In this document: in pieces, positions 18,752 through 64,000 of the stretch
Position numbering within the stretch: position 1 is the stretch's first letter
How the letters are laid out: each line of letters begins with the position of its first letter
Source: Takakia lepidozioides
Lineage: Eukaryota; Plantae; Bryophyta
Direction: 5' to 3'
Assembly (NCBI GenBank): GCA_030704615.1
Contig: CM060731.1
Span: forward strand, 80,476,001 to 80,540,000
Length of the DNA: 64,000 bases
Notes under the pieces: generated by a model
Seen by the model: only the letters and a program-made list of their open reading frames with translations
What the model was told of the DNA's origin: nothing
Databases searched by the model: none
Program-made: the position numbers and the translations under genes

Positions 18752-19229
18752 CAAATAGGCCCTTAAGTTTGGAGCACCATAAAAAAAAACCCTCAGTTCT
18801 ACCTTGTGGGAGCCGCAGTGGGTCTTGACCCAGTCCCTATGGCCCCAATTACCTACGGTGAGTGCCAAGACTCCCCAACTATTCCCACCTCGAGTTCTTA
18901 AGCTATTGGCGATTAGTATATCGCTCGCCCCCGCTATGCTTCTACGATCCCACCACTCGCATCCCGACAAAGGGTCTCCTCCTAGGAAGGACTTTTGGAT
19001 TTTTTAGTGTCTTAGAGGTGTCTTAGCCACTCAATTGGCCCACTCCCTTTATTGGTTCCTCACTCAAGATGAGACCACGCATCAATGTTGTAACAAGTGA
19101 AGATCCTAATGTAGCTTTACTAGAAAATGCCTAAATGCAGATGAGGTACCTACAGAACTAGTTTTTATCTTTTGTTTGAAGAATATGTGTCACTTTGATA
19201 TGAAGAACACAGTGGTTTAGTACGCTCGT

Positions 19230-21346: not shown

Positions 21347-21358
21347 AGGAGGCGGTGA

Positions 21359-21840
21359 TGTCACGAACATAGCCCAGAGGAACTTACCAAGAGTAAATAC
21401 CAGAAGTTACCAAGTTACCATGTTACCGAAAGTTATCATGACTTATCGTGATTTATCATGATCTACCATGATTTATCATTACTTACCAAGTTACCGTGAG
21501 TTTACCAAATTACCAGGAGTAACTTGGGAAACTACTCAGGAAGCTTCATTTGGAGGAAACTTCTCCATCAAGATACCTCATTTGTTTAAGGAAGCTTCTC
21601 CATCAAGAAACCTTTGTTTAATCTTGGAAACTTCTCCAGCAAGAAATCTCCATAGGGGAAGCTTCTTGGGGAAGCTTCTTAGTAGCCAGTATATATAGGA
21701 GGCGAGACTGGACACTCTTCAGTCTCGCCAACACAAGTTCAAGCTACTCTTGTTCCAAGTCCAATACTCCAGTCCAGTTTCCAGTATCTAGTATTCCAGT
21801 CCAGTTTCCAGCATTCCAGTATCCGAGTCGAGTTCCAGTA
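21359..21840 (+). mobile_element. 3' LTR of the Ty3 remnant (right end uncertain)
   Basis: PPT AGAGGAGGCGGTGA is followed directly by TGTCACG. TATATATAGG at ~21690. Internal AGTTACC and TCCAGT microrepeats. Confidence 0.7.
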
Positions 21841-44599: not shown

Positions 44600-44878
44600 T
44601 TAAAAAAAAAAAAAATTCTGAGTTTAGAAGCTTATCCTTACTTGTCGTCCTCAAACAGTCTGCTTCCTCAATCAAGTCCTCATTCTCATCAACTAGTATG
44701 TCATCGTCTGCTTCAACTAGCTTATAATCAACACGGGCATCACATGGCCAGTTTTTGTAAACCATTACCAATTTGTCCAGATTATCTACTCGGGTAGACA
44801 ACTTCGTCTAAGAGTAGTCATCACATTTGCCACGAAGGAAATTCTTTCCATCTCAATCTGCGAACCAAGTATTCCAAG
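44600..44878 (-). pseudogene. hAT transposase C-terminus (dimerisation domain); continues at 56652-56900
   Basis: Removing the retroelement restores W..HETRFPNVGFL..QILGILGSQIEMERI....NVMTTLRR..L.VDNLDKLVMVYKNWP.D. Confidence 0.8.
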
Positions 44879-44882
44879 AATT

Positions 44883-45223
44883 TGTCAAGTTAAATAAGCA
44901 CAGTGTGAAAACAGCTAGAATAAAACTAGTTATTTGTATTTAACACTTGGATTTAGGTCAAGTGTTAAATCAGGTGTCAAGTTTAGTTTGACACCTGGTC
45001 CGTCTTATCTTCACGAGAGCGGCAGTCGCGCGGCTCATCTTTCTCGAGTTGAGCCTGCGCGACCGAGCTCCTTCATCGCTTCAGATATGAGTGTGCTTAT
45101 GATGGGAGTGTAGGTTGTTGTGGGGTGGAGTCCCCATAGCTTGGGGTGCCCCTGGCTCGACTACTATTTGAAAGAGTGATGATGGTTTTGGTTTTCCAAG
45201 TGTGTTCGTTGGTTTTTCTATCA
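44883..45223 (+). repeat. 5' partial LTR (segment B, 341 bp)
   Basis: Matches 56221-56561 with a single substitution seen (G at 45170 vs C). Confidence 0.95.
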
Positions 45224-45237
45224 CTCGAGAAAGATGA
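45223..45237 (+). promoter_or_regulatory. Self-priming primer-binding site (Tf1-like)
   Basis: ACTCGAGAAAGATGA is the exact reverse complement of LTR 45035-45049 (TCATCTTTCTCGAGT). There is no TGG-initiated tRNA PBS. Confidence 0.75.
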
Positions 45238-45449
45238 CTCTATCTAGTTTTCCAGTGCTAAGCTAGATATTATGTTTTTGTTTTTTAAGCACTATGATAA
45301 TATAGCTTGGTCACAGGGATTAGAACAGGAGGCTTGAGATGTTGTTGCGATTTTCTGTCAACCTGTGGATACATCTAAGAGTGGGGTGTGTAGGCTGCGC
45401 TGCTGACTGCTTGGCTGGATGAGAGCCGTGCACCGCCGTAGGTAGGGAA

Positions 45450-45790
45450 GGCGTTAGCTGATCTGAAGAATCGAGCTGATTCTGCTGTCTGCACCAGCAA
45501 GAGAAATCTGGAGGATGGTACCGACCAGGCAGAGAATCTTGGCTCGACTATCCGACAGCAGGCTAAGAATCTGAAAGAAACTGTCCTTGGCTCCACATCC
45601 GATGCCAAGAAGGGTACTGAGAGTAACGTTGGTAAGGCCAAAAACTCCACCGAAGGGTGCTAGCAAGGATTTCCGTTCCACCATATCAGACGCTGCGCAA
45701 ACCAGTCAGGAGAAGACAAGTGAAGCTGCCAGCAACGTCCAAGACGTTGTTTCAAGAGGCACAGGAGGCCTTCAGAAGGGGAGAAGAAGG
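45450..45790 (+). pseudogene. Captured LEA-like hydrophilic protein fragment
   Basis: ADLKNRADSA...DQAENLGSTIRQQAKNLKETV...DAKKGTESNVGKAKNS / TISDAAQTSQEKTSEAASNVQD; A/K/E/T/S-rich and helical in character. Confidence 0.5.
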
Positions 45791-45859
45791 TGAAGGATTT
45801 GGTAGCAAAGATATGAGCGCACATCGTGAGGCATTACGCAGGCTGGTGGAGTGCATGGG

Positions 45860-46319
45860 TTCTTCAAAACAAGTGCTCCAGGCCAGTTCCAAAAACAGAG
45901 CAATCCACGAAAGAAAAACCAGTGTCCATGCGAGATTCGTTCTTCTTCTGTGCAGTCAGTGAACCGAAGGTCTTCAGAAGCACGTCTTGGTCATCAAAAA
46001 CACCTGCAGTGTCGTTCCAAGAAATGATGGTGTTGAACATACCATCTCCCCTGAATGTGATAGATATTGCCGGGCAAATGACCGCTTGAAACTGCGCTTG
46101 AAAATCCAGCAGACAACGCTAGTGCATTGCTCTCCGAAGCAGGAACGTCGTCTGGTCAGATGTCTCCGCAATGTAGCTCAACCAGTTGTCGAAATCAGTA
46201 TTGACAGGCTCGTCAGGGTAGGTGGAGTCGATCTCAGCGCAGGTGCTCCCCATCCATGCCACGAAGGCCAGCAGAACCCACAGGCAGGGTCGCCCCGACA
46301 TTTGTCTCCCATCGAACAA
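45860..46319 (-). pseudogene. Captured pectin methylesterase fragments (catalytic core deleted)
   Basis: Signal-like LWVLLAFVAW...DFDNWL, then ITFRGDG.FNTIISWNDTA...LKTF joined directly to GSLTAQK....MDTGFSFVDC..FGTG. Confidence 0.8.
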
Positions 46320-47278
46320 CCTGGTAGAGGAAGACAGTCTTCAATGAAAGCCCCCCATGTGATCCCAGCATGAGGGTGAAGAGACAGATGTGCGAGTCGT
46401 GCTCGAAATTGTCAATCTTAGTGCGGAAAGTAGGGATTGGGCTGTTGTCAATTGGATTTTTCGCCATGAAGATATCAATGTCATTTGCAGTTATCCATAA
46501 GGATTCCATATTGATGCCGTCATTTGCCGTGACAAGAAATGAAGGGGAGGGAAGTCGCCTGTAAATCATGGGAGTGATGCAGGTAGACTTGGGGTCAGCT
46601 TGAGAGAGGTTGAGTGGACAACCTTTGAGAGCAAGGGCTGGGAAGGGCTGAGCAGAACCAGGAGCTGGTAGGAGCTGACGGAGCAGCACCAGGAGCAGGC
46701 ATCTCTGCTGCATGGCTTTGGAGATTGACGAGCATGCAAGCTGCTCATGCGCAACCCTTTGATCAGGTCTTTGATCGGCCAAATCGGTCAACACCCCACA
46801 CCACCTCCTTGTTCCTGCTTGCTCGCGCAGGCTTGGCCATCGCTGCCCTCGTCTGCGTCCGCCTTGCCTCTCTCTCTCCCTGGGCGATGGCGAACATGAA
46901 GCCCCGTGAGAGCAAAGACCCGGAGTCAGCATAGTCGGGGAACGGCCTCGGGAACCCGTAGATAACCAGGGAACAGGGAACCTAGACAAGTATTTTTTTT
47001 TTTAAAAAGAAAAAAAAGGGGGCCTTTTGATCTAATTTAAATGTTTAAAGAGCCTGGTTGGTCATATCTTTGTCAAATGAGCTCCGTTTGACTCAGTTTT
47101 TGAGGGGATAGCTGCAGAAAGGGGAAATCTACCTACCTAGACCTGGTTTCTGTTTTTGGGACTCTGCTAAAAATCTATGGAATTTTAGAGTGTGAGTGTG
47201 CCATAAAAGATCCACAATCCTGTCTCTAGAACCTGTGCTGGTCTATATGAGAGACAAATCTGTGGATGTACTCCTTGC

Positions 47279-48028
47279 ATGGCTGGGGGAAATGAGGACG
47301 TAATTGAAGGGCAAGTCTCTTCTCTTAGCCTGTGCACACAAGGGGACAGGATTTATGTTTCCCAAGGAACTCAGACTGATTTGAGTGGAGAACAGTTGGA
47401 CGAGTTGATTGCATACTGGGAGTCAGGCATTAACAGTAGACAACAAACTGCTGTAGTTGGCATTGAGGGCCTCAATATCGCCTTGGACAGTCAGAACTCG
47501 GTTGGAGCCAGCAGTTCTGCAGCTGTAGGTGAAATACCAAAGTGGGTGAAAGCTAGGCTTGGAACACAGCCAAAGACAGCCCCGGGGACCAAGGTGTTCA
47601 GCCACAAGGCTGTGGTGTACTGGAGCAGAGGAGCAGGAGCTACACAAGTTTGTGCAATCAGACATGGTTGCAGCCGGATACGCTCTACACAGGGCAACCA
47701 CGAGCGGGGGTTCATCAGCAATGACATGTTTGTTGTGCGTGAAGGAGATGCAGTCATTCGCAATGAGGACACCCGCAACCGTCTCAAAGCTTTCGAGTTG
47801 AGAGACTATCAGACCCTACCTTTGTTTTCTTTAGTGTTCAGTGAGCGGGAGATAGGGGAGTATTGCTTTGTCTCTACCTGGCAGAAAGAGGAGGAGGGTT
47901 GGTTAGAGCGAGCTACTGTAGCTTGGGACAAGGTTAGTGGCAGGTTTCTGGACATAGATATACCTCCTACACCTTACCATCATGCAGAGCGAGGCACTTT
48001 GAGAGAAGTCTGGCAGTTGATAGCATAG
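47279..48028 (+). CDS. Intact 249-aa extra ORF upstream of gag, unknown function
   Basis: Uninterrupted ATG-to-TAG frame with globular-looking composition. No motif recognised. Confidence 0.5.
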   Translation: MAGGNEDVIEGQVSSLSLCTQGDRIYVSQGTQTDLSGEQLDELIAYWESGINSRQQTAVVGIEGLNIALDSQNSVGASSSAAVGEIPKWVKARLGTQPKTAPGTKVFSHKAVVYWSRGAGATQVCAIRHGCSRIRSTQGNHERGFISNDMFVVREGDAVIRNEDTRNRLKAFELRDYQTLPLFSLVFSEREIGEYCFVSTWQKEEEGWLERATVAWDKVSGRFLDIDIPPTPYHHAERGTLREVWQLIA

Positions 48029-48763
48029 ATCAGGATTAGATCTTGCTTGGTCGGGCTTCTATTCTTCCCCTCCATCTCTGTACTATTTTCATTACCTTGT
48101 ACTTGTAGTTGCCAAAGCCTCTCTTGGTGGAGGCCAGTCAGTCCGGGGTTTTGGGCTGGGATATTCTGCAGGATCAGCATTGCAGCTGGATTTTGGTGTG
48201 GGGGTGTTGATGTTTTGATTTCTTGTGTTTGGATCCCCCCCAACACCTGCATGCTTGACTGTGCGCCATGTTGGTTTTGTGTGGGCGCTTGCTTTCATAG
48301 GGATTAGGCCGGATTTGATCACGGTCAATCCTAGAGTATGCTATCGGTGGTGAGGCTGGAGTGATGACCAGCAAGACCACCAGTGTTTCTTCTATGGTGA
48401 GGCTGGGTTGATGACCAGCCAACCATAGGAGTTCTTGCGGTGGATGCAGGTGCAGGTGCCCTGAGCCATTGGGATATGACCCTTAAAACTGCAACAGGTG
48501 CCCACCCGTGTCACTATTAGATTAGTATTAGAGCCTTATAGTGTCACGTGGAGGAGGTGCACATTGTGAGTGTCATTACGGAGTTACCCAAGGGTGGTGA
48601 GGGGAGTACGGCTACAGGCAGTAACAGTGAGAGTGGGTTCACAAGACGAGGTATTCGGTTCAGACCACCTTCACCGCCACCCTCAATTACTGTAGAGTCA
48701 GACACAGACTCGGAGGCTTCATCAATAGGTGTGCACTTTCATTCGCCATTGTTGTGGGACGAC

Positions 48764-50148
48764 ATGGAGGAGATGTATGGAGCTACCAAGGGGCCTCGTA
48801 GGTACTCTGGAGCTGTGGGCACAATCGAGTTGGATGACTTTATCCAGAGTTCGACAGCTGGTGTGATTTGCAGCAGATGCGCAATCCACAGCTATTCACC
48901 CCATTCATGGTGTGGAAGGGACTGTTCCAGCATTTGGAAGGCCCGCCTATGGACGATTACCACGAGTTCAGGCGAGGACATGAAGCAGAGATTGAGGAGT
49001 GGAGGATGTATTGGTCACCTGACTACGTCTCCATTACTCGAGGCACGACGCGACCAGTAGCTGCATCGGTACCAATAGCTCCCACTGCCAGCACTAGTAG
49101 TGGAGCAGGTAGTGCTGGTACTTCTGCAGGTGGTACCAGTTCAAAAGGTGCTACTACTCCTCCTGCCACAACTGCAACACATGTGCCTAGATTCAACCCG
49201 GTGGTGGAGTTCTTCCAGGAGTTGCGGAGGAACTACCAAGGTGTACGGACAGAGAAGCTGCGAAGTTTGCAAGACTTCCAGCGCAAACCCAGTGAGAGCC
49301 TGCGAGAGGCGTACACTCGTATGAGGCGCTTGATAAGTGTGACCCAAGGGGTTACTGAAGCTCAGGCAATCCAGTTTTGGTATGGAATTCTGGACAAGGA
49401 GCTCAGGAGAAGGGTGCGAGATGCAACCCTGTTACAAGCAGCCCAACCCACATTAGCAGATGTGTTTTTGCTGGCTGAGCAGATTGAGCTCAACATGGTG
49501 GAGGAGCGAGTTGTTACAATTGGATTTGGCAAGGACATGCCTGTACGGGGCACAGCTGTCAGCCCACAAGCACAAGGGACTGCCCAACAGCGTGGTCAGG
49601 GGGGCAAGGTTGCCCAGCCCAAGTTCCATGGAGCTTACAGGGGACCTCAGGTGCAGAGGCCCGTGGCATCTTTTGCAGGCCAACAGCAACCAGGGGTGAT
49701 ATGTTGGACATGTGGAGGACCCCATGTCAAGAGAGATTGCCCAGAGAGTGGCAGAAGGCCGGCACAAGCACAGCCTGCACAGTTACAGTGTGGGCATTGT
49801 GGCAAGTATGGGCATGGAGATGCCCAGTGTTATGACTTGCATCCTGAGTTGCGCCCAGGCCAGTTCCAAGGGAACAATGGTGGCCGGGGGCGAGGTGGAC
49901 CAGCCCAGAGAGGACGAGGTGGTCGGGCACGAGGTGCAGGCCAAGGGCAAGCTCAACATGGCCAAGGACGCGGAGGTCAGGGCGTTGATCAAGGCATGGC
50001 CAACCGGCTTCAGCAGCTAGAGCAGAGGCTCGCTGCCATGGCTATAGCTCAGGCGGTACCGGCTCCCAGGCGGGATGGTCCACCTCCTGCTCCTGAGGGA
50101 GGAGATATGGGAGGCATGGGATTATGTGCGGAGCAGCACTACCATTAG
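48764..50148 (+). CDS. gag: Gag with two zinc knuckles (frameshift ~48845; the frame may begin upstream ~48548)
   Basis: QRKPSESLREAYTRM capsid-like motif, CWTCGGPHVKRDC, CGHCGKYGHGDAQC and an RGG-rich tail. Confidence 0.88.
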
Positions 50149-50699
50149 AGTAGGTGGAGTCTGCTGCAGCTGTGACTCGAGGAGCAGCACGAGTTCCTGA
50201 GCCACGAGGTGCAGAGGTGGAATTGGATCCACAGCGTGGGGAGGCAAGCCGTCAGGCGAGGCTTCCTCAGTCATTCACATTGGCGGAGACTGTGTCGACG
50301 CCATCCATGGCACCTAGTTCTTGCCCGACTGTTACCGAGGCGGAGGTTACTATGCCATTGGGGAGAGCTACACGTGCAGCATTGACTCCTGCTGCCAAGG
50401 CTAGTGCGGCCGGTGTGTTATTGGGGGCAGCCACCTCTGTGTGTCAGGCCCCACTGTTCTCGGCAACGATGATTGCGACGCCGGGGGTGAGACCAGCTGC
50501 AGTGTTCAGATTAGCAGCAACACTCTGTGAGAGTGGGGAGGTCACTTCATCTTCTGCGGAGTTAGTGGAAGGTGTAGTGGCAGATGGATCCTCGGATTTG
50601 AGGGTCAAGACTGCCACGGCTGCGCCATGGCAAGTTGCAGCTGCCAGGTTGACGGAGCTGCCAGCTAGGCCAGCCATTGAGCGCGCCATGGTGACACCT

Positions 50700-51130
50700 G
50701 GAGTTGTCTTGTTAGACAACCAGGGAGGCATTTTCACTTTGAGTGGACCGGCAGGCAAGAAGTACCGGCCACTGCGGGTCTTGTTGGACTCAGGAGCTCA
50801 GCCACTGATGTTGGGCAGAGCTGCTATTGCAGGTTTGGGCCTCATGGAGGCGGATATGGAGCCTTGTCATTTCCAGATACAGACATCTCTGGGAGGATCA
50901 GAGCAGGCTCGCGGCATGACACGACATCAGTTGGCTATTAGACTGCAGCCGGATCATCCTGTAGATGGCTCAGTGATGCGAGCCAAGGCCATTGTGACAG
51001 ACGCGGTCTCTTACGATGTCCTCGTTGGTGGGGCAGTGTTATACCCCATGGGCTTCACCCTGGATTTCTGGGAGGAGTCAGCATCCTACAGGCCTGGATG
51101 GCAGTCAGGGGATGGTCGCCGTGCACAGCT
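50700..51130 (+). CDS. Aspartic protease domain of pol
   Basis: VLLDSGAQ catalytic motif and YDVLVGG. Confidence 0.85.
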
Positions 51131-51489
51131 CTCTGTGACATTCATTGGGGGTATTGCGCTGCCCAGCGGGGCAAGATGCCAACACTAGCCGCCTTCACAG
51201 CTGCCGTTAGTTGGCCTGGAGAGTTGCTGGAAGGCAATGCCCATGCAGAGGATGTGCCACCTCCAGCAGAGCAGGATGACATGCATGGTATGGCGGAGTT
51301 GCCTGCCATGGTTGCTCACACTCCGTTGTGGGGTACGAGCAAGATTTGCAGCAGCTGCTGATGGACGGGTGCAACAAGCTTGGGAAGAAGCTTTTGTACC
51401 GTCAGGAGAGGAGGAGAGTGCGGTGATTGCACCAGGGCCACCTCAGTTGTTGCCATTGGACACCACACCTCTTGTGTGGCAGCGGCCGG

Positions 51490-52440
51490 ATGAAGGCATT
51501 TGCCTTCTGGACTTGTTTGGCGGGATCAGCACCGGATTGGCTGCTGTGCTACAGGCAGGTGTGCGGGTAGGCGTTACTGTATGTGGAGAGGGATGAGACT
51601 GCACGACGCGTCTCACTGCGCCATGTGGCTCAGTTGGTACAGCAGTATCCTGACTTGTTGCATGTGTCTGCAGTTCGTGGATACCACAAGCCTTGCCAGC
51701 AGACATTTCCTTGTGGGGCGCAAGATTTGGAGCAAGTTGGCTCCATTGATCTGATAGTGGCAGGTTGGCCCTGCCAAGGGCATTCATCAGCCAGGCATGG
51801 CAATGGATTGCGAGACTCGAGGACGGGTCTGTTTTGGGAGATGGTGCGGATTTTGCGCTGCTTGCAGCTTCATCAAGCTGTATCTCAAGCATACATCTTG
51901 GAGAATGTACCACTGATGGGTGATTCTCGGGCCAGGGTGATGGCCAGTGTGCATCAAGTCTGGTCGTGGCTTGGGTCAGCAGTGTTTGCTGGATGCAGCT
52001 GCAGTGGGGTCACGGGCTCATCGTCCACGACTATGGTGGACTAACTTGATGCCACCCGCACTGCTCAAGCGTGCATTTGATGGGGTGCAGCGGCCAGCAC
52101 ACCTCACCGTGGATGGCATTTTGGACACAGGAAGGCAGTCTCAACGTGTGAGACACGATGACCGTTCGCCTTTGGCAGTGGTCAACAGGGTGGGTCAACC
52201 ACGAGCAGCATTACCTACACTGCTCAGCTTCCCAGGATCCCATGCTTTTCGGGATGGTGGACCTGGCCTCCTGTGGGATGCTCAGTTGCAGCAGTTAGTG
52301 GAGCCTAATGCCGACGAGCGAGAGCGGGCTATGGGGTTTTCCACTGGGACCACGGCGGTGCCTTCTCTTTCTGAGGCATCACGTCGTCAGGTGTTGGGGC
52401 AAGCAATGGATCTCAATTGCTTGACCTGGATTGTCAGCTT
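51490..52440 (+). CDS. DNMT3-like DNA (cytosine-5) methyltransferase domain within pol (frameshifts ~51575 and ~51980)
   Basis: Motif I LLDLFGG, II YVERD, IV DLIVAGWPCQG, V RTGLFWE, VI YILENV, VIII AHRPRLWWTN, IX ERERAMGF..GTT, X RRQVLGQAM. Confidence 0.93.
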
Positions 52441-52899
52441 GGCTATGGCTGAGCAACGTAGAGTGCGGAGTGCACTTCCCTTGACGGTCTCTCTGCCTAC
52501 CGAGACGGTACAGGCAGCGAGTGGGGGCGAGCCGGTGAGGACCACGAGGTGTAGACATCCATGGCACATGTGGGAGGTGCTCGAGGTTCAGAGGGAGTTG
52601 GCAGCGAAGGCAGCTGTGATGGATGAGGTTGGGGATTCTTCTCGGGATGAGGAGGTTCTCAATGATGAGATGATGGGGCAGGATGAGGCCTTGTCATTGA
52701 CTGAGCAGGAAGGGGTACTGCTCAAGAGGTTGCAGCATAGCAACCACGGGACGCGTCCTCTACCTCTAAGCCCACTGGACTTAAGGTTGCAGTTACGGAG
52801 GACAATTGGGAGCCTGACATTGGACCCATTGTCACCGGAGGAGAGAGACGACGTATACGGCGGTTCCTGAGGGCTTATAGGAATTGCTTTGCCTTCAGT

Positions 52900-55873
52900 T
52901 TGAAGGACTTGGGAGCACTGAAGGGTCAAGAGATCCGTATTGAGTTGGCCACTGACACGCCAATCTTTCGGAGACCCTATAGATACAGTGACATGGAGAG
53001 GTCTTTGATTCAGATGAGGACTCAAGATCTCTGGGAGGCAGGTTTGGTGGAGCTCTCTGGTGGAGAGTATGCTTCAGCCACAGTGATGCCAGCTAAGAAG
53101 GATGTCTATGGCAATTGGACAGAGAGACGTATGTGCGGTGATTACCGGCCTGTAAATCGTCAGACCAAGTCCGATAGGTATGCCATGCCAACACCAGAGG
53201 AGATCTTTGATGCCATTGGGCATTCCAAGGTCTTTAGCACGTTGGATTTACGATCCGGATATCACCAGTTGCCGATCAAGGAGGCGGATAAGCAAAAGAC
53301 GACATTCTGGGGGATCAATGAGCACGGGAAGGATTGCCTATACCAGTGGCGGTTCTTACCATTTGGGCTTAAAAACGCTCCCGCTGAGTTTCAAAGAGTC
53401 ATGGACAGGATTCTAGCAGGGGTGGAGTTTGCTCGGTGCTACATAGATGACATCATCATCTTTAGTGCTACGGTGGAGGAGCATGAGAGACACCTTCAGG
53501 GGGTATTTGAGCGCTTAAGGACGCACGGATTGAAGTTACATCCGGGCAAGTGCAAGTTTTTCCACAACCAGATTGAGTATCTGGGTCACATGATATATCC
53601 TGGAGGATTGGGGGTACAGCAGACTAAGGTAGAGTCCATTGCACAGGTTCCACGCCCCACGGATGTGAGCCGAGTTCGAGCTTTCATGGGGTTAGCAAAC
53701 TATTACAGACGGTTTGTTAAGGGATTTAGTGCCATTGCAAAGGCTCTAACCAAGCTGACCAAGGTGGACCAGGAGTGGCAGTGGGAAGATGAGCAAGAAC
53801 AAGCTTTTCAAGAGCTCAAGGCGAGGTTGACCTCGGCGCCCATCTTGAGACGACCTATCAGGGGGCGTCCTTTTCAGCTGCATACAGATTGGAGCATGCT
53901 GGGGCTTGGAGCGGTGCTCACACAGGTGGATGATGAGGGAAGAGAGTTCGTAGTGGCTTATGCTAGCCGCTCGAACAATGCTGCAGAGTCTAAGTATAGC
54001 TCATATGAGGGAGAATGCTTAGCTGCAGTGTGGGCCGTGGCACACTTCAGGTGCTATCTATACGGCAATCTCTTCACCCTTGTCACGGATCACCAACCAC
54101 TCAAGTGGTTGATGGAGTCAGACAAGCTTACGGGGAAGCTTGCACGGTGGGCACTCATCCTTCAAGAGTATGACTTCCAGGTGGTGCATCGACCGGGTTT
54201 GGTCAATCGCAATGCAGATGGGTTGAGTCGCAATCCATGCACGAGCCAGCAGGATGACACTGGAGCTCGGTGGCATGGTGAGACGGACGAGGAGATGGTG
54301 CCCGGATGGCATGCATCTGCATTTCTGTGTATCTTGGCAGCGGAAGGCCAGGTTGGACATGCAACAGGGATGACTGTAGATCAAGTGTCTGAGGACCCTG
54401 AGGCCAGCAATGAGCAAGGTGGCGCCAAAGATATACATGAGGATTCAGTTGTGTTGGACTACCTCCGCACTGGAGACACGGCAGCCACTGTGACTGCCAA
54501 GGAGAGGGATCGGATCCTACAACGAGCCAAGAGGTTCAAGTGGGAGGGGACACACCTGCTCCGAGTGTGGGAGGATGGTCGAGTGAGGATTGTGCCTCAC
54601 CCAACACAGCGGGCACGGTTAGTGCGGCATGCCCATGAGGAGTTGGGGCATTTTGGGGTGCGACGCACTCATAGTCTACTGCAGGGGCAATATTGGTGGC
54701 GTGGTATGCACACAGAGGTGCAACAATTTGTGGCTAGGTGCATGGTGTGTGACAGGGTGCGTGCTTCATTCAACGCCCCTACTCCACAATTGCACCCTCT
54801 TCCGATCATGGGATTGGGCTACAGGTGGAGTCTTGACTTCGCAGGGCCGTTGCCACTGACCATGCGCCACAACAAGTACGTATTGGTGATGGTGGAGCAC
54901 TTCTCCAAGTGGATTGAATTGGTTCCATTGCCTGATAAGGCTAGTGAGGGAGCTGCGTATGCATTCCTGGATTGTGTGCTTAGCCGATTCGGTGCTCCAG
55001 CTGAGGTACTCACGGACCAAGGGAGAGAGTTCTTGGGGGAGTTTCAGGCTTTGTGTGAAAGGCCTTGATAGACCACCGCACCACTTCTCGGGATCATCCT
55101 GAGGCCGATGGCTTGGCAGAGAGAGTTGTTCAGACAGTAAAGAGGGGTTTGCGCAAGTATGGCTTGCAGAAGCACACCTAGGAGATTGGGACCTTCAGTT
55201 ACCCTGGTTAGCCATGGGCTACAGGTTCAGCAAGCAAGCATCACTTGCCTCCTTCTCACCATACTTTCTTCTCTTTGGCCGAGAGCCGGATTTGCCTACA
55301 TCCATTCGCAGAGAAGCTGCTACAGTTCTTAACCTTGACGGTCCGGACGTGTGGGCACGTGCATGTGAGCAGCGTGCAGAGTTGTTCAAGAGAGTCATGC
55401 CCATGGCTTTTGAGAACCTTGCCATTGCACAACATCGTGATACGTTGAGGTATGCTACCATACGTGGTGGGGGCTATCGTCCTGGGGTTCGGAGATTCAA
55501 CCCTGGTGACTATGTCTATCTGCAGCAGACTGCTCCTACGACCCTGGATGTGACTGCAGGACGTGTTATTTTGAGGGTTCGAGAGGTCTTGCCCTCAGGC
55601 GTCTTGGTCTTGGAGGGTCGGGATGGCATAACTTGGAAGGACCATGTGCGTAATTGTGCGCCATGTCACCTTCTGAATGTCGATGGCAGGATTGACCCAA
55701 ACCTGGCAGTGGTATCTGCAGGTTTGAGGTGCATGTTGTGTGGGTCTGCTAAAGGGGCAGCCACCATGCTGGTGTGTGATCGATGCTCTAGAGGTTGGCA
55801 TATGGGATGCTTGACTCCACCTCTTGAGATGGTTCCAGATGGGGATTGGTTATGTCCACATTGCATTGGATAA
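52900..55873 (+). CDS. pol: RT-RNase H-integrase-PHD (frameshifts ~55060 and ~55180)
   Basis: RMCGDYR, LDLRSGYHQ, LPFGLKNAP, YIDD; HTDWS, TDHQPL; H..H..CMVC, SLDFAG, LTDQG; C-terminal C4HC3 CMLC..CDRC..WH..C..CPHC. Confidence 0.95.
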
Positions 55874-56133
55874 TGGGAGTGGATACAACCATGGAAGGCT
55901 AACAAGAAACGCAAGGCCCAGCTACTAGAAGACCTTGAACACGCGAGATCCTGCCTCAAGTTCACAGATTGCAAGACGGCGACTAACGATGGGGCTACTC
56001 TTGTACCCGACCTCTTGGTCTATAGAGTTTGAGTACAATAGGGACAGTGATAGAGGACTTAGTACGGTTGTGGCTATTTCATCTTGTAGCTATCTGGAGG
56101 TAGAGGGACCTAACCACCAGCTAGGGGGGCGAT

Positions 56134-56647
56134 TGTGGCAGACTACTTTATTGTGCATATATGTGTGGTGTGGTTTGGACAGCGATGTAGTTGTGTAGCG
56201 ATATGTATGCGCACGACAGCTGTCAAGTTAAATAAGCACAGTGTGAAAACAGCTAGAATAAAACTAGTTATTTGTATTTAACACTTGGATTTAGGTCAAG
56301 TGTTAAATCAGGTGTCAAGTTTAGTTTGACACCTGGTCCGTCTTATCTTCACGAGAGCGGCAGTCGCGCGGCTCATCTTTCTCGAGTTGAGCCTGCGCGA
56401 CCGAGCTCCTTCATCGCTTCAGATATGAGTGTGCTTATGATGGGAGTGTAGGTTGTTGTGGGGTGGAGTCCCCATAGCTTGGGGTGCCCCTGGCTCGACT
56501 ACTATTTCAAAGAGTGATGATGGTTTTGGTTTTCCAAGTGTGTTCGTTGGTTTTTCTATCATTGTGGCAGACTACTTTATTGTGCATATATGTGTGGTGT
56601 GGTTTGGACAGCGATGTAGTTGTGTAGCGATATGTATGCGCACGACA
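56134..56647 (+). repeat. Complete 3' LTR (A+GC+B, 56134-56561, 428 bp) followed by a second copy of A (56563-56647)
   Basis: TGTGGCAGAC starts directly after the PPT and the LTR ends at CTATCA. The 85-bp segment A is identical at 56134-56218 and 56563-56647. Confidence 0.93.
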
Positions 56648-56929
56648 AATTTGACAAGAACCCAACATTAGGGAACCGTGTCTCATGCTCAAACCAACAT
56701 TCGTTGGATCAAGTTTCTCAACATTGTCAATGAGAACTCAGCCTTCAATAAGCCCTCATTGGGCTCCTCAGTGGAGGCAGCTAATATACCAAAAAATCCA
56801 TGTGAGGGTAGCTCAGGAGTGGGTGGATGCGGAGCTATGCCACCTTTAGGGTTCAAGTGGTCAATCACAGTGGTCAATAGTGACAAGAATACAATTGAAT
56901 CATATTAGAGAGAGAAGACTTCGGCCTAA

Positions 56930-58430
56930 ACCGGCATAACTAAGAGCCACTTCACCTTGCTGCTACTGCCCCCTTTCGGGGGTGGGTCCTATAAGAAAGA
57001 CGGGTGTCCAGGAGGACACCAGATAACATGGGGATAAAGAGGTACCATTGGTACCCCTGAGATACCTAGGGTACCGTCGTAGGGCTGGATTCCAGTTGCC
57101 GTTTGTTAGTAATAATGGTTGTGAGTGAGCGGAGCGCCGTGAGGTGGATGGCTTTGAAACATTTGTGGATAGGGGGGATGGGGATTTTGAAGTTGTCATG
57201 CAGAGCAGCGATACTAACATTGTGGATACCACCCCTGGTTCCGGTATGTCAACTCTATGAGATGTATAGTGAATTTTGGAGAGGGTGCAGTGGGTGGTGG
57301 TGTGTTAGTGGGTAGGGCAATTGCATGGTACGGTGGACCAAAAGCGACAGATTTTTCCTCCATGAAAGTCCATATAAGTACCTCAAATTGAGGGAATTTA
57401 TCCAAATATTTAAATTTAGATTATAGATATGATATATTTAACACTTTTAGTAAAAAGTCTCACCCCAAATATGCTAGAATGTTTTTATTAGAAATTTTAG
57501 TATTTAATTCTGAAAATATAAAATCATTTTTTTATTTCTAATAATTATAGATTTTTGAATTTTTTCCATATATCACTTGGCACCTCTAGATCATGGGTTT
57601 TTACACATTTTTAATAATGATGATATCCCAAAAGCCTCTAAATGAGGATGATGTACATTAGGGAAAATAGACCCAGTTTGGGCCCAGTGTTTAGTATAAA
57701 TTTGTCCATACCTCTCATTCCTTGATGTTTTTAGTCCATATAAAAGTGCATTGGGTAGCTTTAAAAAATGGCACCCCTAATGTGTTTTTTTTTTTGCTAT
57801 CACTTAGGTGTATATGATGTTTTTTTAGTCCATATGGTTTTTCATGTGTAACACTGCAGTCCATAAGATTCAACTTTAAGAGTCCATAGCTCTTTCATAG
57901 ATGATTTTTTTTGCAACAAAAAAATTGGATTATGTCTCTACTGTAGTTACAAATCTTAGACTGTATAAACTTGTATGAAATATTGAGTTGTGATTTTACT
58001 ATAAAAGGTACCATGAATGGAGGTCACTGCAGAAACTGCCATGTTACGCAGTTTTTGGTCCACCGTAGCCTGCAACTACCCGGTAGTCCTAGGACAAGTA
58101 GGATATCAGGGAAGAGCCTGGCGGGGCAGGTGCATGGTGAGTGGGTACATGCGCAGGGAAGCAACCATGGCGGTACAGTGTGATCTGGTGGGCGTCCTTG
58201 ATAGGTACCTGCGTTAATGAGTGAGTACCACCTAATTTCAGGACGGCTAAGAAGGAGTTTATGGATGTGCCAGACTGCATGGTTGTGACGAGTGATATGT
58301 AGGCCATGGATGATTGGGTGGGTACATTGGCTAAGGAGATGTGGCCAGGTGTCACGTGCATGGTGGGTATTAGAGCACAGTGGGCAATAGGGGGATGGGA
58401 AGAGGCGCAACCAGAAGATATGTTTACGTG
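56930..58430 (-). pseudogene. RLE-type non-LTR retrotransposon 3' fragment inserted in the hAT, split by an AT-rich insert (~57400-58020)
   Basis: CPLC...DTWPHLLSQC (zinc knuckle), RHNHAV, PDILLV, then IHLIELTY. Confidence 0.65.
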
Positions 58431-60050
58431 AATCATATTCTTGCACCAGACATTCAGCTGACACCCTACCAATGTAATCAACAATGCACTGTAAGCCTTT
58501 GAAACATGGATCCAATATTAAGGCTAACATTTTATGTGCCTTGTTCTCAATGAAATATTCGGCAAATGAAAGAAATGGGCGAAGAACCTCTGTGACTTGG
58601 AGGGCCATGCGAGCCTAAAACAGCTCTATTTCCTGCTCAAAGGATCCACATCGCAAGGGTGGCACATGAACCGCCCTTACTTCCATAATCTTCATCATCT
58701 CTATCATGATAGCCAAGCTATCAGAGAGGGCATCTGAGAGCAGCCAGTAACCCTTCCGTTGGTTCAGAATGCATTGGTGCACTACAGGTGTCAAAGATTC
58801 CTCCATGGCTTTGGCTATGGCCCATGTCCGCGCACTGGGAACCTTAGTCTACAAGGCAGCAGATTGCCATGTGTAGTAGATATTGATGGCATTAGCATAT
58901 GCCAAAGTCTCTTGGAACATGACTTTCGAAGCAAATCTTGTCTTGACAAGGAACCTGAGTTTTCTCTTGGGCAGGTCTGCATCCACATGCCTTCTCCCAC
59001 TCCGACTTATATTACCCTTACTATTTTTTTTGTCCAAGTAATGGTTTTCTGCAAGGTTGCCTGAGCCTCTTTCAAGCTCACCTCAATCATACCACCACTG
59101 ACATTCTCTTCATTTGTTGCGTACTGGCATGCCCAAAGCAAGACCATAGGGCTCTAACAGCTTCAAAGGATCACATTTCACCACTGAACTTAGGGTAGAT
59201 TGCAAAGTCTGAAGGTTAGCCCCTTCATCCTTTACATAAGTTATCACGTCCTTATCTGATAGCTTGAATCGAGCCAGCAGAGCTCTCACAAGTGGCTACA
59301 AGAGCAACTCCAGATGTATCTAGAGCTTCAAATTTGACAACTTGTAATATGACATGGACACCAAACCTCATTGATAAAGTTTATCACAAGTGCAAAGGTG
59401 TCATGCCCTGATCTGGACATCCACAAGTCAAAGGAGCAAGTCATAGTGGAGCGGCAGAGGCTATGGCAAGTAGAACATACGTGTCCATCGTTTTCTTGAA
59501 CAAAGTAGGTAGATGGTCTTTCACAAGCTGTTTTCTGCTAGCTGGAAATACAACCTGACCACATTGTCTCATGACTAATATGCAGAGCCAGGGATTCTCA
59601 ACAACTGACAAGGGCATGTACCCTTTACAGACCATAAGCATCAGATGTTCAATGAACCTCAGTTGGGCACGATTATCTTTCATATATGGCCTACAATTGC
59701 CAAAGAACGATGTGATAGCATTCGAAGGCACAAATTGTCGTTTTTTGGTTTTCTCACATTTATAGCTACCCTTATTTACAACAATTTCCCTATGGGCTTT
59801 GAATTTTGCAAGATCAGATCCATGCTCATTAGAGACATGTTTCTTCATTACAATTATGCCATGATCTGGATTGTAATTTACAAATTAGCCTTTTCTGGTC
59901 GTGGTTGAGTTACTGAGAGCTATGAGCATTCTCCTCTGAATGACACATTATGCACCTCATTATGTCTCATTGACCTCTACCTTAGCATTTGCATCATTCA
60001 TGACAAAAAATGCCCAATACTCAGAACCTCTATGATATGGGAGCAAAAAT
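58430..60050 (-). pseudogene. hAT transposase N-terminal and central portion, degraded
   Basis: MKKHVSNEH (BED-like end), KGYMPLSVVENPWL, FDLWMSR, LQKTITW...GKG, LALILDP.FK.L. Confidence 0.8.
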
Positions 60051-62299
60051 CCCTGATTGGCAACCAAAACTTATAAGCGGTGGTGCCAGAGAGCCTCCTC
60101 CTCAACAATTCGGTCCTCTTACGCCGTACCACCAGCTTGCAGGACCTCCTCGCTTGTCACCGCCTGTCTCCAAGTCCTCTATATAATACCCAACAAATAA
60201 CAACAATGTTTCAATCTCACTAACCTCTAAAGTGTCCAAAGAAATCCATCTCCCCCAGCTAACCTTGTCACAAACTTGTCAATATTGCAAAACAAGCACT
60301 CAACATCATATTCTACAAGCAACTGATTGCAACAAGCACCAAATATGGGCAAGAGGAGCACAAAGCAGCACTTGAAACAGCCTCCTTGCTTGATGCCGCA
60401 TTGAAAGCCAACAAACCACCTTCATTGCGATCTCCTCCGTAGCAAAAATCAAAGCCAAGAATCTCACCAAAGCTGCCGCCGTCTCTACGCTAAACGCCTC
60501 CACATTGATACCTGAACGACGATACCAGCAACCGAGTTTGAGCGACAAAACAAATAACAACATTGTCATGGTTTTAGTCATGGTTATCTAGAATTACCTA
60601 CTTCTAGTTAACTAGGACATTTTAGATATTTATATTTATATTTTGTGTGTTGGGACTTCATTTGGTCTCACATGCCAAGTGAGATGTCGAGCCTCACTTG
60701 AGACATGGAGATAGGTTTTCCCCTTGTGAGTGTTGAGGAGGCTCATCTTCTTGTAGTTGAGCCTCCATGAGCTTCTCTCACCTCCATAGCTCTAGGTATT
60801 GAGAGGGAATGTGTTGAGGGCTTTGTAGGGTGGATTCCTTTAGCAAAGGTGCCCTTGGCTTGACTTAGTTTATGTGATAGAGTGGATTTCACTTGGAAGG
60901 ACTAGGGCTTGTTCTTCATGTGATTGCTTCATGCTTTGAGAGCTTTCATTGTCTTCTACTTCTCTCATTTCTCATCTCTTATCACTACAAGAAGATCACC
61001 TTATGCTTGTGAGTGCGGAGTGTAAGGATTAGTTTTGCACTTGTATTTTAAAGAGGTTGAGAGCTAGGAGAATTTAGCTCTTGTATCACAAGGCTTGCAA
61101 GGGGTTGCAAGGAAAGGTGCTCGAGTATTGCATGCACCAAGGAGTTGGAGAGCTTGAGAAGAAAGCTCTTGAGTCACAAGATTTTGCAAGGATTGTAAGG
61201 AGGAAGTCTTGTGTGTGTGGAAGCATGGATTCTAGGGTTTGAGAATCCTTTGTATGCATTATGGAGTCGATGGTGTGCGCCATGGCTTGTGGAGAGTGAC
61301 TAAAGGCTTGTTAGTGCTCATTTCACTATCAAGCTAGGGTAAAGCAAGTTCAAAGTGTGGATGTTGTGGAAGAGAAGCCAAGGAGCTATATATGCTTGGG
61401 CTTGAAGACAACAAGGGCAAGCACTTGGAGAGCACTAAAAAGCTCAAGAGGTTTTGAAAGGGAGCATGTGAAGAAATCTTCCAATCATGGTGGTGTGGAG
61501 CCAAGCTTAGGGTGCCATTGGAAGGGCTTGGAGAACATGTGGTGGGAAATCCTTGAAGGGAAATCATCATTCAATGTATGCATAGCTTCACCATAACTAT
61601 GTAATGTGACAAGAGGGGGAGGCAATACTTGGCTATTCATGCTCTTGGTAGTGCGAGCTTTGTGGTGGATAGTTGACCAAGCAAGTGGTGCATGTGTGGA
61701 ACATGCTTGCTTGAGTTTGTAAGTTCAAGTTTGAGAAGGGGAGCTCTTGAACTAGCAAGAGGTGAAGGCCTTTGAGATCCATTTGTGTGTGAAGTGTGGA
61801 GAGGTGTTGATTCATGTTATGATGAAGGAGATCAACACATAGGCCAAGAGGTCATGAAACATGCATTTAAATGACCACGGGGAGCACATGGATGATGGAT
61901 TGGTGCAAGACCCCAAATGAGGCATATGGCGTGAGAGTGGGATCCAAGGCGGATTGCTTGGGAGCATTATTGTAAGTGACAAGCATTGCTCCTACACATT
62001 GAGATAATTTGTGTTGATTTGGAGCAATTGTCAAGTGATGAGGAGACAAATGCATGATTGCTCGGCAATGGAGATATGGTAGTTTGCAATCAAATCCCAA
62101 GGACTAGAAGGGGGATTGATTTGGTGGACAATGACTTGCAAGTTGAGTTGGACCACTCTTGGTTGCACATTGGGGTGGAAAAGAGCAAGAAGATGCCTCT
62201 TATGACCACCTAGAGACCATATTTTTGCTTGAGTAGAAGCATAGAAGTCAAGGACTTGCATTCTAGCTCTTCATTACAAACCCTAGTAGTGTATGCTCA

Positions 62300-62865: not shown

Positions 62866-63708
62866 GTGGACAATGTTGAAGAGCTCTTGAAGGATTGATT
62901 GAGGGATATTGAAGGATACTTGCCACGGCCATACAAGCGAGTGGATAGAGACAGGAGGGAGAGTGGTGGGATGAGAGCATTCTGGGGTTAGGAATTGCTT
63001 TAGTTTCTCTTCTCCATAGTCTTTCACCCTCTCTGTAGGCCAAAACCTTTCCGTAGGTGGAGGCAAGAGTCAGTCCGGGTATGGGCTGGGGTGTCCTTGC
63101 AGGAGCGACACTGTGGAGTGTTTTTGGTGTGGGGGAGTTGCTGTCTTGATTTTCTTGTGTTTGGATCCCCTCCACACCTGCATGCTTGACTGTGCGCCAT
63201 GTTAGCTTTGTGTGGGCGCTTGTTTTCATAGGAGGTTGGTCCGGATTTGATCACCGGCCAATCCTAGAGTATGCTGTCGGTGGTGAGGCTGAAGTGATGA
63301 CCAACAAGACCACTAGTGTTTCTTCTATGGTGAGGCTGGGTTGATGACCAGCAGACCATAGGAGTGCTTGCGGTGGATGCAGGTGCAGGTACAGGTCTAC
63401 GTTAGAAACCTATTATTCCTGCTTGAACCAGTAGCCGCAACAGGTTCTTTACCCGGTTACCTTGTAGAAAGTGGGGATTAGAGACAGGTTGACAACCGGT
63501 TGGGTTGTGAGTTTTCATCACGGAGGTGCCACCAGCTACTGAGGGGAGTGCCGGTACAAGCACCAGCGATACTAGTAGGTACACAAGACAAGGTGTGCGG
63601 TTTAGGCCACTTTCACCTTCAGTGTCTTCTGAGGAAGGTTCAGACTCGGAGTCAGGAGGATTCTCGCCCAGGGTGCAAGTCATTTCCGTGCCATTGTTGT
63701 GGGACACG

Positions 63709-64000
63709 ATGGAGGAGATGTATGGGGCTACCAAGGGGCCACGTAGGTACTCTGGAGCTGTGGGCACCATCGAGCTTGATGACTTTATACAAGAGTTTGA
63801 CAGTTGGTGTGATTTGCAGCAAATGCGCAATCCACAACTGTTTACGCCATTTATGGCGTGGAAGGGGCTATTCCAGCACCTTGAGGGGCCGCCCATGGAT
63901 GATTACCATGAATTTCGGCGGGGACATGCGGTGGAGATTGAGGAGTGGCGAGAGTATTGGTCACCTAACTATGTCTCAATCACAAGAGGCACAAGGGCAG
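63709..64000 (+). CDS. gag: Gag N-terminus of the second element (runs off the window)
   Basis: Open frame homologous to 48764-49050, without the frameshift seen there. Confidence 0.85.
   Translation, partial: MEEMYGATKGPRRYSGAVGTIELDDFIQEFDSWCDLQQMRNPQLFTPFMAWKGLFQHLEGPPMDDYHEFRRGHAVEIEEWREYWSPNYVSITRGTRA

What the first reader, a model, noticed from the sequence alone, without database searches (positions are those of the whole stretch)
55725..55873. Integrase ends in a PHD finger: chromatin reader and methylation writer in one element
Seen: CMLC-x8-MLVCDRC-x3-WHMGC-LTPPLEMVPDGDWLCPHC, a canonical C4HC3 PHD, in frame at the integrase C-terminus where chromoviruses carry a chromodomain. Established: PHD fingers of this style read the H3 tail, and the ADD (PHD-like) domain of animal DNMT3 reads H3K4me0. 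Inference: the element may be targeted to H3K4-unmethylated chromatin, fitting its insertion into a dead hAT, and so mimic DNMT3 reader-writer logic.
Basis: partly seen in the sequence, partly recalled or inferred. Interest (0 to 1): 0.72.

Follow-up and report, generated by a model that had tools for sequence, protein, structure and literature searches.

The report
Methylase-carrying retrotransposon with PHD-tipped integrase
This is a broken copy of a plant jumping gene whose integrase ends in a real PHD zinc finger that likely tethers insertion to histone tails, while its DNA methylase likely acts separately on the element's own DNA, and its split end repeats suggest that it inserts from an end-joined, likely circular copy.

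Summary
The PHD is real (55730-55864, Pfam E 5e-11) and conserved: 27 of 31 related loci found with a PHD-free query carry it. It ends the integrase of an 11.8-kb Ty3/gypsy element (44883-56647, 4-bp target duplication) that also encodes a DNMT3-type methylase and sits in a dead hAT. This copy is broken; two frameshifts part the PHD from the integrase core. The kind is known: Gypsy-DNMT3 with DIRS-like repeats (Klebsormidium), PHD-bearing Gypsy (Chlamydomonas), reader-plus-methylase LTRs (EpiLTRs). The DNMT3 'reader-writer' reading is weak: methylase and PHD lie about 1,100 codons apart across a conserved stop, some relatives keep the PHD without a methylase, and the PHD keeps the H3 A1-R2 pocket but lacks both the K4me3 cage and the acidic K4me0 contacts. 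More striking: the ends run A-internal-B-A-B, with integrase-type ends (CA-NN-TG) inside the LTR and a blunt U5-U3 joint, shared by relatives. This implies integration from end-joined, likely 2-LTR-circle, cDNA (inferred, untested).

The parts
44879..44882 (+). left 4-bp target-site duplication (AATT)
   Evidence: matches 56648-56651
44883..45223 (+). repeat A1 (distal U3-R-U5; begins TGTC, ends CA); left end of the element
   Evidence: 340/341 identical to A2
45035..45048 (+). 14-nt complement of the primer-binding site; inferred transcript 5' end (self-priming)
   Evidence: the pairing is kept with a different sequence in L020 and L037
45224..45237 (+). primer-binding site, self-priming type (inferred)
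48542..50148 (+). gag with zinc knuckles, frameshifted near 48840
   Evidence: (PF03732 E 0.002, weak)
50154..51188 (+). aspartic protease (LLDSGA)
   Evidence: PF13650 E 0.015, weak
51500..52460 (+). DNMT3-type C5 methyltransferase, motifs I, II, IV (PC), VI (ENV), VIII, IX, X present, spread over three frames
   Evidence: intact relative P0124 best matches DNMT3A/B in the PDB, E 1.7e-8
52738..52746 (+). TAG CAA CCA: stop between Gag-PR-DNMT and RT-RH-IN-PHD; leaky stop or re-initiation site (inferred)
52800..54240 (+). reverse transcriptase (YIDD) and RNase H
   Evidence: E 3.5e-32; 4.9e-36
54590..55729 (+). integrase: H2C2, DDE core, C-terminal domain; frameshifts near 55058 and 55173
55730..55864 (+). 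C4HC3 PHD finger ending the integrase (the finding)
56123..56132 (+). polypurine tract
56133..56218 (+). repeat B1 (proximal U3, 86 bp, ends CACGACA)
   Evidence: 100% identical to B2
56215..56224 (+). palindromic joint GACA-GC-TGTC between B1 and A2: predicted integrase cut site inside the LTR
56221..56561 (+). repeat A2
56562..56647 (+). repeat B2, joined bluntly to the end of A2; ends GACA, right end of the element
56648..56651 (+). right target-site duplication (AATT)
44652..60103 (-). dead hAT transposase gene, split in its dimerisation domain by the retroelement

Best explanation
[quoted passage not shown] Steps. Shown: domain order Gag-PR-DNMT3 / stop / RT-RH-IN-PHD; conservation of the PHD; split repeats A-internal-B-A-B with 4-bp duplication; this copy is broken, and young by its repeats. 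Inferred: the RNA starts inside A1 and primes itself at the site behind A1; the stop makes DNMT3 a Gag-level, particle-borne protein and IN-PHD a rarer read-through or re-initiation product; the protease would part them; reverse transcription gives a cDNA with two full B-NN-A LTRs; its ends are joined bluntly (the A2|B2 joint); integrase cuts CA^NN-TG in the left LTR with a 2-nt stagger, which yields ordinary TG...CA ends, and inserts with a 4-bp duplication. The PHD would bind H3 Ala1-Arg2-Thr3 weakly, disfavour K4me3 for lack of a cage, and so bias insertion away from active promoters. The window copy was likely copied in trans from a damaged template, or carries assembly indels.
For: PHD; 27 of 31 loci with at least 200 nt behind the integrase C-terminal match carry it, 1 part, 3 none, and these loci were found with a PHD-free RT-IN query; 116 of 120 listed longer homologues carry PF00628 (biased, query held the PHD); pN/pS 0.39 (22 loci) against 0.16-0.23 for five other domains. 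Pocket: aligned to KDM5A PHD1, L309, P331, G333, W335, D312, V330 are kept, the residues that bioRxiv 715474 assigns to H3 A1, R2, T3. Separation from DNMT: stop TAR-CAA-CCC at the junction in 17 of 48 loci and TAG-CAA-CCA in the window, in frame with the methylase in 9 of 11 loci read; ORF1 proteins end about 80 aa after the methylase, ORF2 proteins begin before RT; P0100 and P0110 run from protease to PHD without a methylase and nest among methylase-bearing elements. Ends:: joint CA-NN-TG in 9 loci (5 insertions), always 2 nt; four insertions go on to B2; 5 of 5 visible left ends start at A with no B before; duplications TCTC (L009), TGTG (L013), AATT (window), 3 of 4 in L020. Precedents: PMC5890265 (self-methylation proposed; DIRS-like repeats), PMC9940879 (PHD in Gypsy-7a, intergenic bias 2.6-fold), PMC4372172 abstract (HIV integrase can open 2-LTR circles).
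Against: No binding, insertion-site, methylation or circle data exist here. The PHD lacks D292, E305, D306 and D315 of KDM5A (D292A and E305A each cost about 6-fold, and D315A also weakens binding; neutralising the BAZ2A acidic pair costs 17-fold), so it may bind H3 poorly or bind something else; it is the least constrained domain measured (pS near saturation, loci not independent). Four proteins carry the methylase upstream of RT with no stop, and 28 of 199 carry it between RNase H and integrase, next to IN-PHD, which leaves room for coupling in those. The stop context is not the exact TMV CAA-UYA. KnitGypsy DNMT showed no activity in yeast, called inconclusive. 14 loci (13 insertions) end A-internal-B, which needs no circle and may be double cuts of linear cDNA, B1-B2 recombination or assembly collapse. 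The loci come from one metagenome scan and probably from a few related hosts.
Confidence: 0.6

Rival explanations
1. One reading: the PHD reads H3K4me0 and steers or licenses the element's own DNMT3 at the insertion site, as the ADD domain does for animal DNMT3.
For: PHD and DNMT3 occur together over a deep lineage; in 28 of 199 proteins (named ones: Pleodorina; Volvox fragment) the methylase lies directly before IN-PHD in one ORF; catalytic motifs are kept in both layouts; plant and protist DNMT3s lack ADD (PMC12344493); no K4me3 cage; algal-type PHDs keep an acidic patch (77 of 84 have at least one D/E there).
Against: In this layout about 1,100 codons, a stop, RT and RNase H part the two; 23 of 26 PHDs of this C-terminal type have no acidic residue in the K4 wall; PHD persists without methylase; no ADD match in Pfam or among the 60 of 82 PDB hits shown.
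Confidence: 0.15
2. The PHD of the land-plant branch is a weakened or re-purposed module: it binds H3 little and serves as a structural cap or binds a host protein; insertion in TE-rich DNA reflects selection and genome make-up.
For: Loss of four acidic contacts; highest pN/pS; no sequence preference in the first 4 nt behind 17 element ends; one flank holds a PPR-like reading frame (L001).
Against: All eight Zn ligands and the A1/R2 pocket are kept (D after C3 in 25 of 26, W 26 of 26, P 25 of 26); L037 also lies in a hAT like the window's, though two cases prove nothing.
Confidence: 0.2
3. The split ends are a chance product (auto-integration, recombination, assembly error) and the family integrates as an ordinary linear cDNA.
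Against: Same layout in another species with intact duplication (L009), same 2-nt joint in five insertions, no ordinary end among 5 left and 18 right ends, and the same layout reported for KnitGypsy-Dnmt3.
Confidence: 0.05

Closest known systems
KnitGypsy-Dnmt3 of Klebsormidium nitens (de Mendoza 2018, PMC5890265; abstract, passages, one part of the main text and a supplement search seen; figures not held)
   Same: Ty3/gypsy domain set with a non-rearranged DNMT3-type methylase in the polyprotein region; repeats arranged as in DIRS (A1...B-A2-B); a K. nitens integrase is a 50% hit (P0119).
   Different: Here in land plants (hits named Marchantia, Calypogeia, Riccia, Sphagnum) and, in a second layout, green algae; the text and held supplements never mention a PHD (Fig. 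4c unseen); methylase ends ORF1 before a stop; the paper's text offers no mechanism for the repeats.
PHD-bearing Gypsy elements of Chlamydomonas: Gypsy-7a_cRei (PMC9940879, passages) and REM1 (not held; known through citations and recall)
   Same: PHD in an LTR retrotransposon, proposed to guide or soften insertion; Gypsy-7a inserts between genes 2.6 times more than chance.
   Different: No methylase reported for them; REM1 is described with a truncated, reversed integrase module plus chromodomain.
EpiLTRs (bioRxiv 10.64898/2026.05.21.726589, passages)
   Same: One LTR element with a histone reader and a DNA methyltransferase.
   Different: Chromodomain, DAM and a DNMT4-related enzyme there; PHD and DNMT3 here; the preprint calls them distinct from streptophyte Gypsy-DNMT3.
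Chromoviruses, Tcn1/Tf1-Sushi type (REXdb, PMC6317226, passages)
   Same: Reader domain behind the integrase C-terminal domain; self-priming primer site.
   Different: PHD instead of chromodomain; split repeats; RT only 31-35% like the window's own Tcn1-like copy at 19.7-21 kb; REXdb text has no 'PHD' or 'methyltransferase'.
PAT/TOC1/Ngaro split-direct-repeat DIRS elements (layout recalled; A1, A2, B described in the peer-review file of PMC5890265)
   Same: A-internal-B-A-B layout; an internal joint holds the information for both ends.
   Different: DDE integrase and 4-bp duplication here, not a tyrosine recombinase.
KDM5A/B PHD1, BAZ2A/B, CHD4, UHRF1 PHD fingers (bioRxiv 715474, PMC5415848, passages)
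   Same: Best PDB matches (E 1e-16 to 1e-9); A1, R2, T3 pocket kept; no methyl-lysine cage.
   Different: Acidic K4/R8 wall and N-terminal Asp missing.

Membership tests
PHD finger | C4HC3 zinc ligands with canonical spacing and core Trp | tested here: met
H3K4me3-reading PHD | conserved cage Trp (two before the His; position recalled, requirement from PMC5415848) | tested here: not met
   Gly in the window and in 26 of 26 of this type
H3K4me0-reading PHD (KDM5A/BAZ2A type) | H3 A1 pocket and R2-binding Asp | tested here: met
   L, P, G, W and D312 equivalents kept
H3K4me0-reading PHD (KDM5A/BAZ2A type) | acidic K4 contacts (D292, E305, D306 equivalents) | tested here: not met
   Ala at all three in the window; 23 of 26 without an acidic wall
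H3K4me0-reading PHD (KDM5A/BAZ2A type) | measured binding sensitive to K4 methylation | not testable with these tools
   needs peptide binding
ADD domain of DNMT3 | extra GATA-like finger, fused directly before the methylase (recalled) | tested here: not met
   single PHD about 1,100 codons downstream, no ADD match
Ty3/gypsy LTR retrotransposon | PR-RT-RH-IN order, DDE integrase, PPT, primer site, target duplication | tested here: met
   relative P0004 best matches Ty3 Pol, E 1e-91
Gypsy-DNMT3 (KnitGypsy-Dnmt3 kind) | intronless DNMT3-type methylase in the polyprotein region | tested here: met
Gypsy-DNMT3 (KnitGypsy-Dnmt3 kind) | DIRS-like split repeats with Gypsy domains | tested here: met
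Gypsy-DNMT3 (KnitGypsy-Dnmt3 kind) | RT or DNMT groups with the K. nitens elements in a tree | not tested
   no K. nitens RT or DNMT among the hits; only integrase P0119
Chromovirus (REXdb) | chromodomain behind the integrase | tested here: not met
Chromovirus (REXdb) | placement in the REXdb RT-RH-INT tree | not testable with these tools
   REXdb sequence file too large to read
DIRS/PAT/Ngaro | tyrosine recombinase instead of DDE integrase | tested here: not met
   rve and H2C2 found, no recombinase match in the ORFs scanned
EpiLTR | DAM plus DNMT plus chromodomain | tested here: not met
hAT transposon (the target) | transposase with PF05699 dimerisation domain, continuous across the insertion | tested here: met
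   shown through relatives P0202 and P0206; the window's own pieces gave no Pfam match

The most novel reading that the evidence does not exclude
A green-lineage clade of DDE-integrase retrotransposons, from algae to bryophytes, has moved its integrase attachment sites inside the LTR, so that only an end-joined 2-LTR circle opened at CA-NN-TG gives a copy able to transpose again. It packs a DNMT3 that methylates the cDNA and tethers the circle to nucleosomes through a PHD on the integrase; in the algal layout DNMT3-IN-PHD may act as one reader-writer-inserter.
Probability: 0.45. Interest if true: 0.78.

Novelty: new variant of a known kind. Interest (0 to 1): 0.5.

Why it matters
The PHD alone is ordinary: readers on retrotransposon integrases are known. 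The value lies in the combination. 2-LTR circles are long held to be dead ends or at most a reserve for retroviruses (PMC4372172, abstract); a natural family whose competent copies would have to come from such a circle makes circle integration directly testable with short DNA substrates. Gypsy-DNMT3, described in one alga, turns out to be common in liverwort and moss genomes (Marchantia included, a tractable model) and in green algae, where many of its methylases are annotated as hypothetical host genes and could inflate or confuse DNMT inventories. Standard LTR finders would take A1/A2 as the LTRs and miss the true right end. Two layouts, and relatives that lost the methylase, give a natural comparison for whether reader and writer are coupled.

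Tried and rejected
No whole genome is held, so copy number, ends and insertion sites in this genome were not counted. Viral contigs held no relative. Earlier-findings look-ups returned nothing. Sequencing runs: no RNA holder listed; X7 is only guessed to be RNA, so nothing is said on expression. Reads at the left end of the element were not obtained; that end rests on the window and on five related insertions. In one search my PHD and integrase-N queries were in a wrong frame and the locus PHD print-out inherited that; both were redone, and one search is used only for repeats and domain order. In one search the middle methylase query was in a wrong frame and gave nothing. The hAT was not found by Pfam on window pieces or by the word-index search, only through representatives. 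The ESM Atlas gave no credible match for the ORF at 47207-48028. A fold search of the model could not be run, so the SH3-like label of the domain before the PHD rests on secondary structure and recall. No complex prediction was run: a PHD-H3 pair would pass by likeness to solved structures and would not tell K4 states apart. CpG o/e (element 0.50, hAT 0.30, PPR 0.41) says nothing on self-methylation. The RT tree has a very long outgroup and open deep nodes and the DNMT tree no host outgroup, so neither gives the order of events or a single origin; P0180 was mislabelled 'up' there. Literature: ten searches found no paper that describes PHD plus DNMT3 in one Gypsy element, the family in bryophytes, or an internal attachment site; the library lacks most subscription papers, REM1 (2005) and Sanchez and Zhou (2011) were not held, figures (notably Fig. 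4c of PMC5890265), Craig's thesis, Repbase entries, two REXdb files and bioRxiv supplements were not seen and may already show the PHD or the end structure.

Full report
Observation. Pfam PHD matches over the whole profile at E 5.1e-11. An AlphaFold2 model on a 65-row alignment (mean pLDDT 82.9, pTM 0.43) shows helices, a small beta-strand domain and then the PHD at pLDDT 89-96. The PHD is in frame only with the integrase C-terminal part: the catalytic Asp-Asp lie in frame +1, the Glu in +3 and the PHD in +2. Contigs of four runs hold sibling sequences that differ by single-base indels at these and other breaks, so the family is multi-copy and this copy, or its assembly, is damaged.

The element. 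It spans 44883-56647 between AATT duplications. It encodes Gag, protease, a C5 methyltransferase, RT, RNase H, integrase and PHD, with at least eight frame breaks. The methylase keeps motifs I to X. An intact Marchantia relative best matches DNMT3A/B in the PDB (E 1.7e-8), and a relative's Pol best matches Ty3. The insertion splits the dimerisation domain of a dead hAT. The window is land-plant DNA (a P450 and a PPR gene, labels recalled), and the nearest named hits are liverworts and Sphagnum. No genome is held.

Conservation of the PHD. 116 of 120 listed longer homologues carry PF00628 (110 by my pattern), but that query held the PHD. The unbiased test is the 48 loci found with an RT-integrase query: 36 reach the integrase C-terminal domain, 5 end within 200 nt and were set aside, and of the other 31, 27 carry the PHD (5 with a frameshift), 1 a part, 3 none. 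Against these loci pN/pS is 0.39 for the PHD and 0.16-0.23 for the integrase core and C-terminal domain, RT, RNase H and the methylase C-half (rough, pS near saturation, loci related).

What it could read. The best PDB matches are CHD4, PHF12, KDM5A/B PHD1, ATXR5, DPF3, BHC80, BAZ2 and UHRF1. Using the KDM5A contacts in bioRxiv 715474, the window keeps the H3 Ala1 pocket (L309, P331, G333, W335), the Arg2 Asp (D312) and the Thr3 contact (V330). It has Ala at D292, E305 and D306 and Ser at D315. PMC5415848 reports that the acidic wall and the methyl-lysine Trp exclude each other and that neutralising the wall weakens binding up to 17-fold. The 26 PHDs that end the protein have Gly at the cage position (26 of 26) and no acidic wall (23 of 26), whereas 77 of 84 PHDs with a C-terminal extension have at least one acidic residue there. 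Inference: binding to the free H3 N-terminus, not K4me3; K4me0 selectivity and affinity are uncertain.

Reader-writer coupling. Two layouts exist among 199 proteins. In the window's, ORF1 is Gag-PR-DNMT3 and ORF2 is RT-RH-IN-PHD. A stop followed by CAA-CC lies at the junction in 17 of 48 loci (many do not reach it; not counted) and in the window, in the methylase frame in 9 of 11 loci read. It resembles, but is not, the TMV CAA-UYA leaky context (PMC2754532); an ATG two codons on in the relatives allows re-initiation instead. Four proteins have this order without a stop. In the second layout (28 proteins; named: Pleodorina, with a Volvox fragment) the methylase lies between RNase H and integrase. 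Catalytic motifs are kept in both. P0100 and P0110 run from protease to PHD with no methylase and nest among methylase-bearing elements. So the PHD goes with the integrase and does not need the methylase, and the methylase has moved relative to it. ADD-like coupling is unlikely in this layout and open in the algal one.

The ends. A1 (44883-45223) equals A2 (56221-56561) at 340 of 341 bases; an 86-bp B lies before A2 and again after it, 100% identical. The polypurine tract precedes B1. A 14-nt site behind A1 pairs with 45035-45048 inside A1, and the pairing holds with another sequence in L020 and L037, as in self-priming Tcn1/Tf1 elements (PMC6317226). The LTR defined by reverse transcription is thus B-GC-A, but the integrated ends are the start of A (TGTC) and the end of B (GACA). 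The B1|A2 joint is GACA-GC-TGTC; A2|B2 is a blunt U5-U3 joint. In relatives the joint is CA-NN-TG with exactly two bases in 9 loci (5 insertions); four go on to B2 and one (L030) folds back. 14 loci (13 insertions) end right after B. Five of five left ends start at A. Duplications match in L009 and L013 and in 3 of 4 bases in L020. No ordinary end was seen. The simplest route to A-int-B-A-B is end-joining of a two-LTR cDNA (circle or head-to-tail dimer) and a 2-nt staggered cut in the left LTR; cutting both sites would give the A-int-B form, which lacks a 3' R. Recombination or assembly collapse could also give that form. This is inference from geometry.

What is known. PMC5890265 describes KnitGypsy-Dnmt3 with DIRS-like repeats and proposes self-methylation of cDNA; its methylase was inactive in yeast, which the authors call inconclusive. 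PMC9940879 reports a PHD in Chlamydomonas Gypsy-7a with an intergenic bias. PMC6673714 calls retrotransposon PHDs widespread, and bioRxiv 2021.11.30.470311 finds PHD and chromo the commonest transposon fusions. The 2026 EpiLTR preprint describes chromodomain plus DAM plus DNMT. I saw passages of these, not figures. Ten searches found no text on PHD plus DNMT3 in one Gypsy element, on the family in bryophytes, or on internal attachment sites; unseen figures, a thesis and Repbase may hold them.

Verdict. Observation partly confirmed, interpretation partly supported. A land-plant member of the Gypsy-DNMT3 kind with a PHD-tipped integrase: new variant of a known kind. Best explanation 0.6 (tether plus separate cDNA methylase plus end-joined precursor); DNMT3-like coupling 0.15; weakened or re-purposed PHD 0.2; chance ends 0.05. 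Interest 0.5, carried more by the end structure and the breadth of the clade than by the PHD.

Noticed in passing
window 45224-48540: The leader between A1 and gag is about 3.3 kb, against about 1.2 kb in L009, and has no match in the 48 loci. It holds a LEA-like low-complexity frame (45442-45790, label recalled), an antisense fragment with a weak pectinesterase match (45864-46200, E 0.018) and a 273-aa ORF without Pfam or Atlas match (47207-48028): possibly captured host gene pieces.
   Followed up: partly
window 63034-64000: A second, 82-94% related copy of the leader and gag start, running off the window, preceded by tandem repeats and another element rather than by repeat A.
   Followed up: no
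L030:3350-3880: After B-GC-A and the primer site the sequence folds back into an inverted copy of the first half of A and ends in TGACA: an aberrant cDNA or assembly product that still ends at an integrase-type end.
   Followed up: partly
L037:2580-3612; L020:12631-13300: L037's element sits in a hAT related to the window's (tblastx E 2e-10); L020's flank looks hAT-like by eye, without Pfam support.
   Followed up: partly
P0032, P0038, P0029, P0047, P0078, P0039: Algal-type members carry DNMT3 between RNase H and integrase and 100-450 residues behind the PHD, some with weak Tudor-like (PF21743) or G-patch matches.
   Followed up: partly
P0121-P0199: Many 'hypothetical' gene models of Marchantia, Calypogeia, Riccia and Sphagnum are the Gag-PR-DNMT3 ORF of this family.
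   Followed up: partly
window 19204-21460: Decayed Ty3/gypsy copy of the Tcn1/chromovirus look (label recalled), 31-35% identical to the family's RT.
   Followed up: no
window 30196-32372: PPR-like frame with a tandem array of 195-bp units at 97% identity, a recent internal expansion.
   Followed up: no
window 10462-12534: Cytochrome P450 gene that looks like cinnamate 4-hydroxylase (recalled), in line with a land plant.
   Followed up: no
window 58024-58430 and 56700-58000: A LINE-like zinc-finger fragment and other DNA interrupt the same hAT; a second hAT relic lies at 18087-18630.
   Followed up: no
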